Of a stretch of 64,000 bases of DNA, positions 32,453 to 39,475 are shown piece by piece. The notes under the pieces are model-generated. The model was not told the origin of the DNA. It searched no databases and worked only from the letters and a program-made list of their open reading frames with translations. Made by a program: the position numbers and the translations under genes. The DNA is from an uncultured Verrucomicrobiae bacterium (GTDB lineage Bacteria; Verrucomicrobiota; Verrucomicrobiia; Chthoniobacterales; JAFAMB01): positions 416,001-480,000 of the forward strand of contig CAWEXO010000013.1 of the NCBI GenBank assembly GCA_963813025.1, written 5' to 3'. The stretch's first letter is position 1, and each line of letters begins with the position of its first letter.

Positions 32453-34124
32453 CCGGGATTTTTCTCAGATTAATTGCGACGGATTTCTCACGCTGTTCAC
32501 GGCTCTAGGAGCCGTGACGTAGCTGGTCACGAAGGGTTCTAACCCGCTTTTTGCACCATGTAACGGTTTACGCAGAGGAAAGAGAGAGCCCGGGTTAATG
32601 GTAGAGTGTTTTTCCAAAAGCGGGCTAGATGATGCCGCGGAAGCGGCATCTGGGGACACCGCAGGTATGCCGCCGTTGTTTTTCGGGTGCCGGGGTCAGC
32701 ACCTCTGTAGGAGCACTAGCCATAGAAGCAAACCAAGCAGGAGCAAAAGAGCTGCTGAAAGGGAAAGCTCGAACTCAACCACAAGCGAATGCGGCGAGTG
32801 TTTCGGGTGATGACCGCCCCAATTTTCAGCAGACGCAAGCGAATGGTTCCCACCTGAGCGCGGGCCAGTTCAGAACCGCTTAAGCCCAGACGACGGAGCG
32901 CTTCTAAGAGCACATAGGCCGAGGAGGAGAGCAAGAGCCGGAACTGATTCGCCCACCAAGCATGGCAGCTGGTGCGATCACTAAAGAGACCAAGCTGTTG
33001 TTCCTTGATGCGATTTTCTATCTCACCCCGGGCGCAGTAAATCCCATCATAGAGCGCCTGGGCAGACCCTTCCAGATTGGTCAAAACATAACGCGGATTA
33101 GCCCCTTTTGGGCTGTGTTCGGCCTTGGCAATTACCCGTCGCTTCCGGTCCCAAGTTTTGGCCTTGTATTTAAATTGCGTGAACAGTCGCACCTTTTCTC
33201 CGCTCATTTGGTGTTTGCGTTCCGCCCGTTTCTGTAACTTAGCCGAGAGTGCCGCCAAGCGCTCATTCTTGGCCAGTCCGACCAGGTAGTTGACTCCCGC
33301 TCCCTCGCACCAGCGCAGCATCTTCCACCGGCAAAAGCCGCTGTCGGCGCGCAGGGTAATTTTGACCGCCGGCCAGTGTTGGCGCAGCGCCTTTACCAAT
33401 AAGGCCAGGATCGCCCAGGCATGTTTGGCCGAATCGATATTACTCTCGCGCAGATAACTCACCAGCAACCGCTCGCCGCAAAAGACGTACAGCGGTAAAA
33501 AGCAGAAGTCGTAGTAATAACCGTGAAAGTGTCGCCCTTCTTGCAGGCCATGCACCCGATCGTCGGTGCAATCAAAATCCAACACCAGTTCAGCCGGTGC
33601 TGATTCGAAGCTGCCCACGAATTGCTCGAACAACACTTCGTGCATCAACCAAGCTTCCCGGCGTCCAGCACGATTTTCTAAGCGGCACAACGTCGAACAA
33701 CTCGCCAGTTCCTCGGTTCGCTCACTGGCCGTTTGCCAAAGCAAATCTTTGCGCAAAAAATCATGGTCGTTGAGATCTTCGTACCCAAGGGCCAAAGCGT
33801 AAATGCGCTGCCGCAGCATGCTCTCCAACGAATGCTCGATCTTGTCGGGATCGCGCGGGTCGGGTAACCGCTGCGCCAACCCTTTGGTTAATCCAATCCA
33901 GCGATCCACTTGGCGCAGCAAAACCACTCCGCCGTCGCTGCTGACATTTCCTCCTTCGAAATTTCCTTCGATTTTTCTCCCACTAAAGCCTGGCAATTCA
34001 AATCCGAACTCAGTACATTCTGTCATTAGCGAAGTCTCCTGTTGGTTTGTTTGTAACTGATTCATTCCTAACAGGTTCCATAAAAGACTTCGCTACTTTT
34101 TTGTCCTTATGGTGCAATTTCCGG
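32453..34124 (-). mobile_element. IS1380 family element, intact transposase 34026-32716
   Basis: CCGG-starting ends; SSDGG, GYEDLND, LDFDCTDD, LRADSGF, YCARGEIENRIKE. Confidence 0.9.
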
Positions 34125-34990: not shown

Positions 34991-36326
34991 TCATTTCAAC
35001 AAGGGGAGATATTGTCAAAAGTTGTGTATCGGGTTACTGGCGCATCCTTCGAAAACGATCGCGTTAAATGATGGTTAGGCTGCCTGTTGGGTTTGTTCTT
35101 CGCCATCGACGAATCGAACACCGGTAACTACCTTTGGGATCAATTCGAAGCCCTGGAGCCGGCGCCAATGCTTTTGGGCTTCCAGGCCGAGCTTGAAGAC
35201 CATGGTCAGTGTGGCGATGCGTGAACCGGAACCCTTGGTTCGATGAGTTCGAAGCCGAACGGTAGCGAAGGTTGATTCGATGGGGTTGGTGGTGCGTAGA
35301 TGCGGCCAATGTTGGGCCGGGAAATCGTAAAAAGTGAACAGAACTTCTTTATCTTTCTCCAAGCATTCGCAAGCTTTTGGGAATTTCTTTTGGTAACTGG
35401 AGAGGAACTGATCATAGGCAGCCAGAGCGGCTTTGCGGGTCGGCGCCAGGTACATTTCATGGATCAGTTGCTTGGCTTTGCCCTGGACGCTCTTGGGCAT
35501 TTTATCCAGGATGTTGGCTGTCTTATGCACCCAGCAACGTTGCTGGGCAACGGGGCCATATTCTTCCTGCAACGCGATCCAGGAGCCAAGCGAACCGTCT
35601 CCAATGGCCAGCTTGGGCGCACTGGACAGGCCCTGGCGTTTGAGCTGCCCAAGCACTTCACGCCAGCATTGAGAGCTTTCCCGGTACCCATCGACAACGG
35701 CTATCAATTCCTTGGTGCCATCCTCGGTGGCTCCAATCAAGATCAGCACGCAGGTGCGTTCCTCATCGAGCCGGACGTTGAAATAGACGCCGTCGGCCCA
35801 CCAATAAACGTAGCGCTTCTGGCTCAAATCCCGCTGACTCCATGCCTTGTAAGCGGCTTCCCATCCGGCCTTGAGTCTGACAATGTTCGTGGCCGATAGA
35901 TCCGCTGGCTCCCTCACCCAGGATCGCCTCCAGGGCTTCCGTAAAATCTCCAGTCGAGATCCCTTTGAGGTAAAGGGCTGGGATTAAGGCGTCAACGCTG
36001 GGAGCCCGACGCATATACTTAGGCAGAATCGCACTGGAAAAGCGATCCTTGTCGCGATGTCGGACCCGTGGCTGACGAACCCGGATCGGACCCACTCCGC
36101 TGACTACCTCCCGCTCCGGCAAGCGCCCATTGCGCACCACCAATCGTTTTCCATGCTGATCCCTTCGATCCTTTTGGAACTGGATATAATCGACCACCTC
36201 ATTCTCAATGGCCGTCTGTAACAGCTTCCTGGCTCCTTCCTGCAGTAACTGCTCCAGGAACGGCTTCTCTTCATTTTTTGCTCGCTCTTCAAGCGAGACC
36301 ACTTTATTCTCTGCCACGGGTGCATC

Positions 36327-36670
36327 CTGATACGGCTTCCATAGTTATGCACCGGCGCCGGCAGAAGGACCATTGCAGGCCACATTATTCATCGGAGCCG
36401 GTACATAACTTGCCCACGACTCGACTTGGGGTTGTTAATAACTCCAGGCAGTGTCAGAAGGTGATTGGCAGCTTTGCCTGCGGACCGGTACGGTCCGGTG
36501 CATCCCGCTCTACGAGAGCTCAAGAAAGATTACCGGCCGGTTCGGAGGCTTCCGTCCCAAAGTCTGAGAGAACGACATCCCAAGAGGATCCTGTATCAGG
36601 TCGACTCAGGACTGAGGCCAAGGCTGATGCTGCGCGATACAGCTCCCAAACCTCCAAACGGAAATGCGCA
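36327..36670 (+). ncRNA. IS110 bridge RNA candidate in the non-coding left end
   Basis: Target guides GGTGCATC (36497-36504) and AAGAAAGAT (36522-36530); donor guides AGAGAAC (36567-36573) and GTATCAGG (36593-36600); each pair flanks a small hairpin; transcript ends unknown. Confidence 0.82.
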
Positions 36671-37917
36671 ATGTCTTCTCCTGATTCCCTTGTAGCTCAC
36701 TTTGCCGGTCTTGACTGGGCGAAGCAGCATCATTACGTCGTCGTCGTCAACGCTGGTGGCCAGATCGTGACCGAGTTTAGTTTTTCCCATACGCTCGAAG
36801 GCTGGCAAGAGTGGCGCCAGCAAGCAGCCCGCTTTGCCCCTTTAGCAGTGGCAGTCGAAACCAGTCGAGGTGCCGTCGTCGACCAACTGCTTCAGACACC
36901 CGATTGCACGATTTATCCGCTGAACCCCAAAGCCGCTCGAGCGTACCGAAATCGCAAAGCTCCGAGTGGCACCAAGAGCGATCATTTAGATGCGTGGAGC
37001 TTTGCCGACGCCCTTCGTCTTGATGGTTCCACCTGGAAGCCGCTCTCAAAGCAAGATCCCCTTTTGGAGCAGTTGCACCTGCTGTGCCGTGACGAGATCG
37101 CCTTGATTGAAGAGCGCACGGCCTGGTCAATCAACTGATCGCTGCCCTGCATGAATATTATCCTACTGCTCTGGCGGCTTTTGAGGACTGGACGCTGCCC
37201 GCAGCGTGGGCCTTTGTGGAAGCCTTTGCCACGCCACAAGCCTTAGTCAACGCCGGCAAACGCCGATGGGAAAAGTTTTTGCACACCCATAAGCTGGCTC
37301 GACCCAATACCTATCAAAAGCGTCTGGAGCTCTTCGCTAAAGGTACCGAATTTGGTGCTTCGGAGGCTCTCACACTGGCTAAGAGCCGTCTGGCCGTGAC
37401 GCGTGCCAGGCAGCTACGGGTGCTGCAAACGCAGCTGGAGGACTATCGTCAGCAAATCGAAAAGCTCTTTGCGCACCATCCCGATCACGAACTGTTCGGC
37501 TCCTTGCCGGGAGTCGGCCCCAAAATCGCACCCCGCCTATTAGGCGAGCTAGGGGAGGACCGTCATCGGTTCGAGTCCCCTCAGGCTCTGCAATGCTACG
37601 GGGGGACTGCTCCGGTCAGCTATCAATCCGGTCCCGTCCATCAAGTCAGACTTCGCACCCAGTGCAACTTAGTCCTGCGATCTACCATTCACCTCTGGGC
37701 TGACCGAAGCCGACACGCCTGCCCTTGGGCCGACACCTATTACCAGAGCCTTCGAAAAAGGGGCAAAACTCACGCCTGCGCCTTACGGTGCCTAGGCCAG
37801 CGCTGGCTCAAAATCCTCTGGAAGATGTGGCAAACCCGGACCCGCTATGACGCGGAGCTGCATCAGAAACATCAGATCCAACACGGCTCCTGGGTGCTCA
37901 AACTGCACAACGCCTAA
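36671..37917 (+). CDS. IS110 DEDD recombinase, one frameshift near 37120
   Basis: GLDWAK, AVETSRG, KSDHLDA (DEDD); SLPGVG; GTAPVSYQSG (Tnp-domain serine). Confidence 0.9.
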
Positions 37918-38171
37918 CCTTCTATTTCCCATGTCAATAGCTTCACGCACAAATCAACTTGTAAACCAGAGAACATCTTTCTTTTTGGCGTCCTCGAGTG
38001 AGGCTGCCGTGTTTCTTTTTCTTACTGAAAGGATGCGCCTTTCTTTAGCTCCTCATCCACAAAATTCGGTTATAGCTCTCAACAAGGATGCGCCAGCCCC
38101 AATACACAACTTTTGACAATATCTCGTCAGGGTGCCTAAAAACCTACAGACAAAAATTGAGGTCAACCAGT

Positions 38172-39475
38172 TCAGGTGCTCCCCATCGTCTGGACAGGTT
38201 CGATGGGTTTGTTAGCTATAAATTTCCTTCAAAAGGAGCGGGGAAAACCAGCCGATTCTTCCGCGCTACCTTTTGTCGGAGTTTTGTAGGGATTCTGTTA
38301 TATACGGCAGCAGGCGACCGATTGGCAAGACTGCTGTGCGGCCGCTGATCGTTGTAGAAGGAGAAGTAGCGACCGATACTCCGCCAGGCCTCGGTGACGG
38401 AGTCGTACTCACGCAAATAGACCTCCTCGTATTTCAGGCTGCGCCAGAGTCGTTCGACAAAAATTTTGTCATAGACTCTACCACGACCGTCCATGCTGAT
38501 AGCAATCTGGTGCTCGGTGAGGACCCCGGTCCACTCCAGACTGGTAAACTGAACTCCTTGATCGGTGTTACTGATCTCTGGTGGCCCGTACTTTTTCAAG
38601 GCCCGGCGGAGAGCCCGCACACAGAAGTCGCTTTCCAAGCTGTTGCTCAGTTCCCATTCCAAGACGTAACGGCTATAACAGTCCATTAAGGCGAAAAGAT
38701 AAACAAAGCCTTCGGCTAACCCGATGTAAGTGATGTCGCTACACCAGACCTGATTGCGGTGCTCGATGAGCAGGCCTTTGAGCAGATAGGGAAAACGCAG
38801 GTGTGCGCCGCCGTTGGAGCTCAGGCGAGGCCTAGGATAAACGGCTTCCAGTCCCATTAGGCGCATCAAGCGGCGGGTTCGCTTGTGGTTGACGGACCAA
38901 CCCTGGTCGTGCAACGCAAGGGTCATCCGGCGTACCCCGTAAAAGGGCCAGCGGGTATAGATAGAGTCGGTCCAGGGCGCTCATCAGCACCAGATTAGCG
39001 CTACTCTCTTCCTGCGCTTGGTAATACCAGCTGCTGCGGGCCACCCCGAGCAAGGGCGCATTGCTGCACGAGGCTCATTTTGTCGGCTGGGCCGATCAGC
39101 TGCCCGCCGCTGCTGGAGCGTAAAGCCCCGTACTTTTTTTTAAGCCACTCCAGTTCCATTTTGAGCCGTCCAATCTGCTCGAACAATTCGCTCTCCTGAC
39201 GTCTGAATTCCTGGTCGCCCACCCGAATCTCCCCGTCGAAAAACCCGCTCAGGCTTTCGACCGCTTGGCGTTTCCACGCCGAAACTTGCGTCGGGTGCAC
39301 GCCGTATTCAGAGGCGATCTCGTTGAGGGTCCGACGTTCTTGAATGGCCTCCAGGGCCACTTGTGCCTTTAGGGTCGCGCTATGCTGTCGTCGGCGCCTC
39401 ACGCCAGCTTTCTTGCCGTTCATCTCCAGGTCTTTTTTCTATCTTAGCGACCTGTCCAGATTGGGGAGCAATTCA
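38172..39475 (-). mobile_element. IS3 family element (orfA from 39423, orfB ending 38216), with extra indels
   Basis: IRs TGAATTGCTCCCCAATCTGGACAGG / TCAGGTGCTCCCCATCGTCTGGACAGG; LKKK slippery site; WCSDITY, NTDQGVQF, ERLWRSLKYE. Confidence 0.9.

What the first reader, a model, noticed from the sequence alone, without database searches (positions are those of the whole stretch)
36323..37977. Decodable IS110 bridge RNA that appears programmed to hit an IS256 transposase start region
Seen: removing the element gives target GGGTGCATC-TTTCTTTTT, and joining its ends gives donor CCAGAGAACATC-CTGATACGG, sharing CATC. Within 105 nt of the non-coding left end, four segments match these in order. GGTGCATC (36497) equals target left. 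AAGAAAGAT (36522) is the reverse complement of target right ATCTTTCTT. AGAGAAC (36567) equals donor left. GTATCAGG (36593) is the reverse complement of donor right CCTGATAC. Each pair surrounds a small hairpin (GCTCT/AGAGC; ATCC/GGAT) inside a closing stem. Established: this is the target-loop plus donor-loop layout of IS110/IS621 bridge RNAs. Inference: this is a divergent member with a core other than CT, whose guide specifies another IS, so it parasitises IS256 and separates that transposase from its left end. The mechanism class is known; this particular system may not be described.
Basis: partly seen in the sequence, partly recalled or inferred. Interest (0 to 1): 0.9.

Follow-up and report, generated by a model that had tools for sequence, protein, structure and literature searches.

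The report
Bridge-RNA jumping gene aimed at IS256
A small RNA-guided jumping gene (IS110 family) carries a guide RNA that spells out the ribosome-binding region of another jumping gene's transposase (IS256 family) and has landed there repeatedly; the mechanism is already known, and this is a clear new natural example of it.

Summary
Ten uninterrupted IS256 copies show the empty site is GGTGCATC-CT-TTCTT, so the core is the canonical CT, not CATC or ATC.

The element (window 36327-37976) is an IS110-group insertion sequence. It has a two-loop bridge RNA upstream of a DEDD/Ser recombinase. The recombinase is frameshifted in this copy and intact in a sister copy.

Across 38 distinct target loops from relatives, guides covary with their flanks: right arm 4.50 of 5 against 1.48 for mismatched pairs, left arm 5.84 of 7 against 2.54. 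22 of 32 predicted RNA pairs show compensatory changes.

The 14-nt target lies 2 nt upstream of the IS256 transposase start codon. All 9 perfect copies in the genome lie in IS256. 4 of 5 junction-bearing copies or fragments sit there. One copy with identical loops sits in a REP-like hairpin with no guide match, which is unexplained.

A 57%-identical paralogue targets the IS256 terminal repeat.

Verdict: new member of a known kind. The scan has noted IS110-in-IS256 cases before on other DNA.

The parts
36327..37976 (+). IS110-family element (1650 nt including its left CT core). The second CT core copy is at 37977-37978.
   Evidence: Junctions compared with 10 empty IS256 sites. A metagenome contig joins 36326 to 37977, skipping 1650 bases. 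Sister copies are 99% identical.
36479..36619 (+). Bridge RNA core: target-binding arm 36479-36546 and donor-binding arm 36547-36619.
   Evidence: MFE and centroid fold. Consensus structure of 49 relatives has 22 of 32 pairs with compensatory changes. No Rfam family matched at E up to 10.
36497..36505 (+). Left target guide GGUGCAUC plus C. It is identical to the target top strand up to the first core base. The second core position is C, not U.
   Evidence: Its register is shifted one base towards the inner hairpin relative to most relatives, as in locus L019.
36507..36519 (+). Inner hairpin of the target loop (GCUCU-ACG-AGAGC).
   Evidence: The stem covaries in relatives (columns 49-52 with 59-62).
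36522..36530 (+). Right target guide AAGAA-AG (reverse complement of CT+TTCTT), followed by handshake bases AU that pair with donor positions 6-7 (AT).
   Evidence: The first handshake base pairs with donor position 7 in 38 of 38 distinct loops.
36567..36576 (+). Left donor guide AGAGAAC-GA-C. It matches the donor left arm AGAGAAC-AT-C except at positions 6-7.
   Evidence: Family-wide this region reads GAGAGAAC plus two variable bases. ACAUCC belongs to the covarying hairpin, not to the guide.
36577..36589 (+). Inner hairpin of the donor loop (AUCC-CAAGA-GGAU).
   Evidence: Columns 123-126 pair with 132-135, with compensatory changes.
36593..36601 (+). Right donor guide GUAUC-AG (reverse complement of CT+GATAC), followed by handshake bases GU. 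The G pairs with target position 7 (C).
   Evidence: The first base pairs with target position 7 in 34 of 38 loops; the control with other loci's targets gives 0.31.
36671..37917 (+). IS110 recombinase gene, a pseudogene in this copy. One T is missing after 37123, which splits it into 36671-37138 and a second frame ending at 37917.
   Evidence: Pfam PF01548 (2.4e-25) and PF02371 (6e-17). Frameshift. The intact 415-aa sister copy is shown. Its profile matches the IS621 and ISCro4 recombinases.
36320..36326 (+). Left half of the target (GTGCATC), now the left flank of the element.
37979..37983 (+). Right half of the target (TTCTT), now the right flank of the element.
35006..38125 (-). Host IS256-family element (about 1468 nt without the nested IS110), with 24-nt perfect terminal inverted repeats.
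   Evidence: IR alignment. About a dozen further copies lie elsewhere in the genome.
35075..36317 (-). IS256-family transposase gene, itself split into two overlapping frames (35763-36317 and 35075-35917). Its start codon lies 10 nt from the IS110 insertion point.
   Evidence: Pfam PF00872 on both pieces. Intact copies have a 431-codon open frame whose first ATG lies 2 nt after the 14-nt target.
38103..38116 (+). Unoccupied perfect target (TACACAA-CT-TTTGA) of the 57%-identical IS110 paralogue, inside the IS256 terminal repeat. The mirror copy is at 35015-35028 on the minus strand.

Best explanation
This is an insertion sequence of the IS110 group that moves by bridge-RNA-guided recombination.

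Its left non-coding end encodes a bridge RNA of about 140 nt with two internal loops. The target loop pairs with both strands of the 14-nt site GTGCATC-CT-TTCTT. The donor loop pairs with the element's own joined ends, AGAACAT-CT-GATAC. A DEDD/Ser recombinase exchanges strands at the shared CT. Two handshake bases in each loop pair with the partner DNA after the first strand exchange.

The programmed site is the Shine-Dalgarno and spacer region 2-16 nt upstream of the start codon of an IS256-family transposase gene. The element therefore lands inside a multi-copy mobile element and cuts that gene off from whatever lies upstream in the IS256 end.

The copy in the window is non-autonomous because its recombinase gene is frameshifted. 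Its RNA region and ends are intact, and an intact recombinase is encoded by a sister copy.

Shown in silico: anatomy, core, guide-target and guide-donor complementarity, family covariation, repeated occupancy of the site, and the catalytic residues.

Inferred: that the RNA is made, that a circle forms, and that IS256 expression is affected.
For: Domains and catalytic residues:
- The recombinase has PF01548 plus PF02371.
- A profile of 16 family members hits IS621 recombinase 8wt6 (E 5.4e-21) and ISCro4 9t56 (8e-18).
- The family-invariant D15, E63, D104, D107 and S320 align with the residues the IS621 paper names as catalytic: D11, E60, D102, D105, S241 (sections 8 and 11).

Core and target:
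- The CT core is shown by 10 empty sites and by a metagenome joint.
- The guide layout equals that described for IS621 (section 7, sections 11-12). The handshake bases AU and GU are the same as in IS621.

Family covariation:
- 75 aligned upstream regions gave 58 loci with unambiguous ends and 38 distinct target loops.
- Right arm: 4.50 of 5 cognate against 1.48 non-cognate.
- Left arm: 5.84 of 7 cognate against 2.54 non-cognate.
- Handshake rule: 38 of 38 and 34 of 38.
- RNA structure: 22 of 32 pairs have compensatory changes in 49 sequences.

Occupancy:
- 4 of 5 junction-bearing copies or fragments lie at the same IS256 position.
- All 9 perfect 14-mers in the genome lie in IS256 copies.
- The IS110 copies are 99% identical, while their host IS256 copies are only 82-90% identical to the window's. 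This indicates separate recent insertions.
- A soil run from another study holds a 1687-nt contig with both junctions.

Natural retargeting:
- The 57% paralogue has the same donor arms but a different target loop (UACACAACC / UCAAAAG). That loop matches its own flanks in the IS256 terminal repeat.
- The 77%-identical elements of a related genus carry other target loops that match other flanks.
Against: - One full copy with the same target loop lies in a REP-like hairpin. Its fit to the guides is at chance level: 2 of 7 and 2 of 5, with longest shared words of 5 and 6.
- The left target and left donor guides do not pair with the second core base.
- The left donor guide mismatches donor positions 6-7.
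- No sigma-70-like promoter was found in 36250-36720.
- No Rfam family matched.
- Nothing here shows the RNA, the circle or recombination directly.
- The genome is a metagenome-assembled one, 80% complete, so copy counts are minimum figures.
Confidence: 0.87

Rival explanations
1. The element entered one IS256 copy once. The several IS256-borne copies arose because the composite (IS256 with IS110 inside) was moved or duplicated by IS256 transposase supplied in trans. On this reading repeated occupancy says nothing about RNA guidance.
For: The nested IS256 keeps both terminal repeats. Intact IS256 transposase genes exist elsewhere in the genome: 4 of the 9 copies with a perfect target have a 431-codon frame. 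Two right flanks (L004, L005) are identical over the 40 nt shown.
Against: The IS110 copies are 99% identical. The IS256 sequences around them are only 82-90% identical to the window's host copy. The hosts are therefore much older than the guests. The guides fit the site perfectly, and relatives with other guides sit at other matching sites.
Confidence: 0.05
2. Target choice is not set by the element's own target loop alone. A second route places IS110 elements at the CT of a REP-like hairpin loop. That route could be a target loop supplied in trans by another element, recognition of DNA structure, or replacement of a resident paralogue by donor-arm ('half-match') recombination.
For: Two unrelated IS110 elements of this genome sit at the same base of that repeat without a guide match: the L002 copy and a 41%-identical paralogue. 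Both are flanked by a clean CT duplication, so the recombinase made the junctions. In IS621 the two loops in one synaptic complex come from two RNA molecules (Fig. 1 legend). A preprint reports half-match and no-match off-target insertions (section 8). Another reports a target stem-loop as an extra determinant (abstract only).
Against: No target loop for this repeat was found in the genome. A metagenome pattern scan gave 15 hits, none followed by a donor loop. The site matches neither donor arm (and direct reading), so it is not a half-match as that preprint defines it. There are only two cases.
Confidence: 0.3
3. The matches between the RNA region and the flanks are fortuitous, and the site is chosen by the protein.
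For: Single-sequence fold energy is not unusual (z -1.05). Short matches are common: 186 of 2000 random CT sites share a 7-mer or longer on the right arm.
Against: Guides covary with flanks across 38 distinct loops, as do the handshake bases. The structure covaries. Two paralogues with the same donor arms but different loops sit at the two sites that their loops spell.
Confidence: 0.02

Closest known systems
IS621 (Escherichia coli) and ISCro4, IS110-group bridge recombinases with bridge RNA (PMC11208160 and PMC11208158; passages read)
   Same: - The bridge RNA lies in the left end, upstream of the recombinase gene.
- The two internal loops are in the order left/right target guide, then left/right donor guide.
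- The core is CT.
- Left guides are identical to the top strand and right guides are complementary to it.
- The handshake bases AU and GU are the same as in IS621.
- Donor positions 6-7 are AT.
- The DEDD and Ser residues align.
   Different: - The recombinase is 415 aa against 326-341 aa. It is found only by a profile search, not by a single-sequence search.
- The right target guide is 7 nt rather than 4.
- The second core base is unpaired in both left guides.
- The natural target is an IS256 ribosome-binding region rather than a REP sequence.
- The host is a soil member of the Verrucomicrobiota.
[quoted passage not shown]
   Same: A DEDD-recombinase insertion sequence whose fixed target lies inside another mobile element.
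   Different: - They belong to the IS1111 group, with the guide RNA downstream of the gene and subterminal inverted repeats.
- Their target is a transposon end, not the translation-start region of a transposase gene.
ISEc11 / ISXne4 natural reprogramming of the seekRNA (PMC11187229, section 10)
   Same: Related elements keep the RNA scaffold and swap the target-matching segments. The same is seen here between the window element, its 57% paralogue and the 77% relatives.
   Different: Here two diverged elements in one genome are aimed at two sites of the same IS256 family.
IS900 and relatives of mycobacteria (IS110 family), said to insert between ribosome-binding site and start codon. This is recalled, not seen in any call.
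   Same: The target lies between or over the Shine-Dalgarno sequence and the start codon.
   Different: Those targets are host genes. Here the gene is another element's transposase.

Membership tests
IS110 family, IS110 group (bridge recombinase elements) | N-terminal RuvC-like DEDD domain (PF01548) and C-terminal Tnp domain (PF02371) with a conserved serine | tested here: met
   Pfam hits on both halves. D15, E63, D104, D107 and S320 are invariant in 16 relatives. They align with the catalytic residues of IS621.
IS110 family, IS110 group (bridge recombinase elements) | Element flanked by a CT core dinucleotide that is also present once in the empty target | tested here: met
   10 empty sites compared with both junctions. 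A metagenome joint has a 2-base ambiguity. 58 related loci have ends CT-GATAC... and ...AGAGAAC-NN-CT.
IS110 family, IS110 group (bridge recombinase elements) | Long non-coding left end upstream of the gene that folds into two internal loops | tested here: met
   The non-coding left end is 342 nt (36329-36670). Fold. 22 of 32 consensus pairs have compensatory changes in 49 sequences.
IS110 family, IS110 group (bridge recombinase elements) | Loop segments complementary to target (left/right target guides) and donor (left/right donor guides), covarying across relatives | tested here: met
   cognate 4.50 of 5 and 5.84 of 7, against 1.48 and 2.54 for non-cognate pairs, over 38 distinct loops.
IS110 family, IS110 group (bridge recombinase elements) | Handshake bases that pair with the non-cognate DNA and not with the cognate one | tested here: met
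   The target-loop base pairs with donor position 7 in 38 of 38 loops, and with its own target in 2 of 38. The donor-loop base pairs with target position 7 in 34 of 38, and with its own donor in 1 of 38.
IS110 family, IS110 group (bridge recombinase elements) | Bridge RNA is transcribed; a promoter is rebuilt at the circle junction; a circular intermediate forms | not testable with these tools
   No sigma-70-like site was found in situ. The joined ends were not scanned. Only assembled contigs of sequencing runs were on hand.
Rfam RNA families | Match to a curated covariance model | tested here: not met
   0 matches at E up to 10 in 36200-38100. I did not check whether Rfam 15 holds a bridge RNA model at all.
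IS256 family (the host element) | Mutator-type transposase (PF00872) between terminal inverted repeats | tested here: met
   PF00872 on both gene pieces (4.8e-14 and 2.9e-43). 24-nt perfect inverted repeats at 35006 and 38125. No target duplication is evident at this copy by direct reading.

The most novel reading that the evidence does not exclude
In this soil Verrucomicrobiae genome, IS256 acts as the landing pad for at least two long-diverged bridge-RNA elements (57% identical recombinases). Each was reprogrammed to a different conserved IS256 site: the ribosome-binding region of the transposase gene, and the terminal repeat. This would be an RNA-guided 'parasite of a parasite' relationship that could silence IS256 copies and let the guests ride along when IS256 is moved in trans. 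Alongside it runs a second insertion route, not specified by the element's own guide, into the loop of a REP-like hairpin, used by two different IS110 elements.
Probability: 0.2. Interest if true: 0.6.

Novelty: new member of a known kind. Interest (0 to 1): 0.4.

Why it matters
This is a clean, fully decodable natural bridge RNA from a little-studied phylum. It comes with a ready-made family alignment of 38 distinct target loops. That alignment confirms the IS621 rules, including handshake pairing, in a branch whose recombinase is about 90 residues longer.

It also shows natural retargeting within one genome: two diverged elements share donor arms but aim at two sites of the same IS256 family. 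This is useful for asking how target loops evolve and why mobile elements choose other mobile elements as safe, multi-copy landing sites.

The two guide-unmatched insertions at one REP hairpin position give a small natural data point for the current debate on off-target and half-match recombination by bridge recombinases.

None of this changes the known mechanism.

Tried and rejected
- Rfam scan of 36200-38100: no match at E up to 10.
- Consensus promoter and terminator scan of 36250-36720: none found. The consensus may not suit this phylum.
- Single-sequence search of the recombinase against solved structures: no hit at 1e-3. A profile was needed.
- I first read ACAUCC (36575-36580) as a discontinuous left donor guide with a 3-nt bulge. 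I rejected this because the segment is the 5' arm of a hairpin that covaries in relatives.
- Expression: one metatranscriptome run (X18) gave three contigs. They cover only parts of the recombinase gene at 90-95% likeness, with no cover on 36328-36711. These are contigs from a relative and show nothing either way about the RNA.
- REP copy, search for a guide in the genome: only the known loops and one further loop of a broken paralogue (C5:279147) appeared. The first pattern in that script was too loose and gave 1758 meaningless hits.
- REP copy, metagenome pattern scan: 15 hits, 0 followed by a donor loop.
- REP copy, half-match test: comparing the REP site with the donor arms gave no arm match (and direct reading).
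- The predicted target of the 41% paralogue (CAGCCTG-CT-ATTTC) has no perfect site in the genome: 44 sites at exactly 2 mismatches, none at 0 or 1.
- Flanks of 41 related loci (123 flanking frames): 0 carry an IS256-type transposase. 8 loci have another mobile-element gene nearby: L030, L034, L035, L040, L048, L070, L076, L093. IS256 targeting was therefore not seen in the sampled relatives.
- One search failed on wrong coordinates and was corrected.
- A ten-copy IS110 family at 29% identity was aligned, but its ends were not resolved.
Full report
**What is there**

Window 36327-37976 is a 1650-nt element. It has a 342-nt non-coding left end, a recombinase gene (36671-37917) and a 59-nt right end. 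The gene carries the two Pfam domains of IS110-family recombinases, PF01548 and PF02371. In this copy one T is missing after 37123, so the gene is split. Two sister copies in the genome and contigs of three soil runs have the T.

The sister copy L002 encodes an uninterrupted 415-aa protein. A single-sequence search against solved structures found nothing. A profile of 16 relatives hit the IS621 recombinase (8wt6, E 5.4e-21) and the ISCro4 recombinase (9t56, 8e-18). In that alignment the family-invariant D15, E63, D104, D107 and S320 fall on the residues that the IS621 structure paper names as catalytic: D11, E60, D102, D105, S241.

**The core is CT**

The element lies inside an IS256-family element. 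That host spans 35006-38125, has 24-nt perfect terminal repeats and carries PF00872 on both pieces of its own split transposase gene.

The genome holds about a dozen further IS256 copies. I read the site in ten uninterrupted ones. Nine have GGTG-CATCC-TTTCTT and one is divergent. Comparing this with the two junctions in the window gives:
- shared dinucleotide: CT;
- target: GTGCATC-CT-TTCTT;
- donor (joined ends): AGAACAT-CT-GATAC.

A soil-metagenome contig that joins 36326 to 37977, with a two-base ambiguity, agrees with CT.

**The RNA**

The IS621 papers describe the following layout (section 7, sections 11-12):
- a left target guide identical to the top strand of the left target plus core;
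- a right target guide complementary to core plus right target;
- the same pair of guides for the donor;
- two 'handshake' bases after each right guide, which pair with positions 6-7 of the other DNA after strand exchange.

Read with the corrected junctions, the window fits point for point:
- left target guide GGUGCAUC-C (36497-36505);
- right target guide AAGAA-AG (36522-36528), followed by AU, which pairs with donor AT;
- left donor guide AGAGAAC (36567-36573);
- right donor guide GUAUC-AG (36593-36599), followed by GU, whose G pairs with target C7.

The handshake bases AU and GU and the donor AT are the same as in wild-type IS621.

There are three departures:
- the second core base is not paired by either left guide;
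- the left donor guide mismatches donor positions 6-7;
- the left target guide sits one base closer to the inner hairpin than in most relatives (also so in L019).

**Is it more than chance?**

A scan of one genome per species returned 80 related loci. They come mostly from Verrucomicrobiota and Planctomycetota metagenome bins and are 49-69% identical in protein. Their upstream regions align cleanly over both loops.

Of 75 aligned rows, 58 had exactly one left and one right end with enough flank. These reduce to 38 distinct target loops.

| Measure | Cognate | Control |
|---|---|---|
| Right guide vs own right flank | 4.50 of 5 | 1.48 with other loci's flanks |
| Left guide vs own left flank | 5.84 of 7 | 2.54 with other loci's flanks |
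| Target-loop handshake base pairs with donor position 7 | 38 of 38 | 2 of 38 with own target |
| Donor-loop handshake base pairs with target position 7 | 34 of 38 | 0.31 with other loci's targets |

These loci are relatives, so the counts are not independent events. However, the loops differ almost completely between them.

The consensus structure of 49 sequences has 32 pairs, 22 of them with compensatory changes. This includes both closing stems and both inner hairpins. The single-sequence fold shows the same two internal loops, but its energy is unremarkable (z -1.05). No Rfam model matched.

**The target**

In IS256 copies with an intact 431-codon frame, the first ATG lies 2 nt after the 14-nt site. 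In transposase sense this reads AAGAA-AG-GATGCAC-CA-ATG. The site therefore covers the AGGA ribosome-binding motif and the spacer, and the crossover is 10 nt from the start codon.

All 9 perfect 14-mers in the genome are in IS256 copies. The two one-mismatch sites elsewhere are empty.

Of the five loci that show a junction of this element, four are at this IS256 position:
- the window copy;
- a full copy later interrupted by an IS3-family element;
- a 3' fragment;
- a 5' fragment.

The IS110 copies are 99% identical to one another, whereas their host IS256 sequences are 82-90% identical to the window's. The guests are therefore younger than the divergence of the hosts. This argues for separate insertions rather than copying of one composite. 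A soil run from another study holds a 1687-nt contig spanning both junctions with 76 differences.

**Natural retargeting**

A paralogue on contig 3 has a 57%-identical recombinase and the same donor arms. Its target loop reads UACACAACC / UCAAAAG. It sits at ATACACAA-CT-TTTGACAATATC, which is the IS256 terminal repeat. All 16 perfect copies of that site are IS256 ends, two of them in the window.

The nearest relatives elsewhere (77% nucleotide identity, another genus of the same family) carry other loops that match other flanks. Among the flanks of 41 related loci, none carried an IS256-type transposase and 8 had some other mobile-element gene nearby.

**The exception**

Copy L002 is intact and has the same loops; only 36562 differs in the RNA region. 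It lies with a clean CT duplication in a REP-like hairpin repeat. The empty form of that repeat, GTGGCACAGG-CT-TCCAGCCTGTCAGTGG, occurs about 23 times. Its fit to the guides is at chance level (2 of 7, 2 of 5).

A 41%-identical paralogue sits at the same base of a variant of this repeat, again without any fit to its own loop. Relatives of that paralogue in other genomes do fit their flanks.

I found no loop for this repeat in the genome or in a metagenome pattern scan. The site is not a donor half-match in the sense of the 2026 preprint.

I treat it as an unexplained off-target or second route, not as a refutation, because of the weight of the covariation evidence.

**Comparison and novelty**

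The mechanism class is known: IS621 and ISCro4 bridge recombinases, and the seekRNA of the IS1111/IS110 types. Targeting of another mobile element's conserved sequence is known for IS4321/IS5075 (a reference title seen), and natural reprogramming is known for ISEc11/ISXne4. No paper in the library holds IS110, IS256 and 'bridge RNA' together. Earlier notes of this scan report IS110-type elements in IS256 terminal repeats, and at ribosome-binding sites, in other genomes. I did not test those notes.

This is therefore a new member of a known kind. Two modest points of interest remain: the pair of diverged elements aimed at one IS256 family, and the REP exception.

**Not shown here**

Transcription of the RNA, the circular intermediate, recombination activity and any effect on IS256 expression were not shown.

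Noticed in passing
G000 contig C13:18499-20151 (locus L002) and C13:99208-100809: Two different IS110 elements (the intact sister copy and a 41%-identical paralogue) sit at the same CT of a REP-like hairpin repeat. The empty form GTGGCACAGG-CT-TCCAGCCTGTCAGTGG occurs about 23 times. Neither element's target loop matches the site.
   Followed up: partly
G000 contig C3:~82890-84520 (loci L009/L014); its empty targets at window 38103-38116 and 35015-35028: A 57%-identical IS110 paralogue has the same donor arms. Its target loop spells the IS256 terminal inverted repeat, where it is inserted. All 16 perfect sites in the genome are IS256 ends.
   Followed up: yes
G000 contig C13:351496-352939 (locus L003 1-1500): A 1.44-kb IS3-family element (106-aa orfA and 340-aa orfB with an integrase core) interrupts another copy of the IS110 element within its recombinase gene.
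   Followed up: partly
G000 contig C5:276306-278909: A further IS110 paralogue is broken by an inserted IS256 copy (C5:277053-278357). The two families therefore interrupt each other in both directions. Its target loop (C5:279147) reads ACUGGCCCGCU / AAGCAAAAG.
   Followed up: no
window 35075-36317 (minus strand): The host IS256 transposase gene is itself split into two overlapping frames (184 aa and 280 aa). Four other copies in the genome have an intact 431-codon frame.
   Followed up: partly
window 38216-39423 (minus strand) and 32716-34065 (minus strand): Right next to the IS256 lies an IS3-family element whose orfA and orfB look disrupted (HTH_Tnp_1, rve). On the other side lies a 449-aa DDE_Tnp_1_4 transposase. 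The region is a nest of insertion sequences.
   Followed up: no
G000, ten places (e.g. C13:132032-133225, C11:76365-77558): A ten-copy IS110-family element only 29% identical to the studied recombinase. Its ends and target were not resolved in my alignment.
   Followed up: partly
loci L034 and L093 (other genomes): Two related elements sit at the same kind of site (GGTTCAAC-CT-TCTATC) and have the same right guide, but their left guides differ (UUUCAUCCU against GUUCAACCU). Each has another IS110 gene in its flank. This may be a loop caught in the course of retargeting.
   Followed up: no
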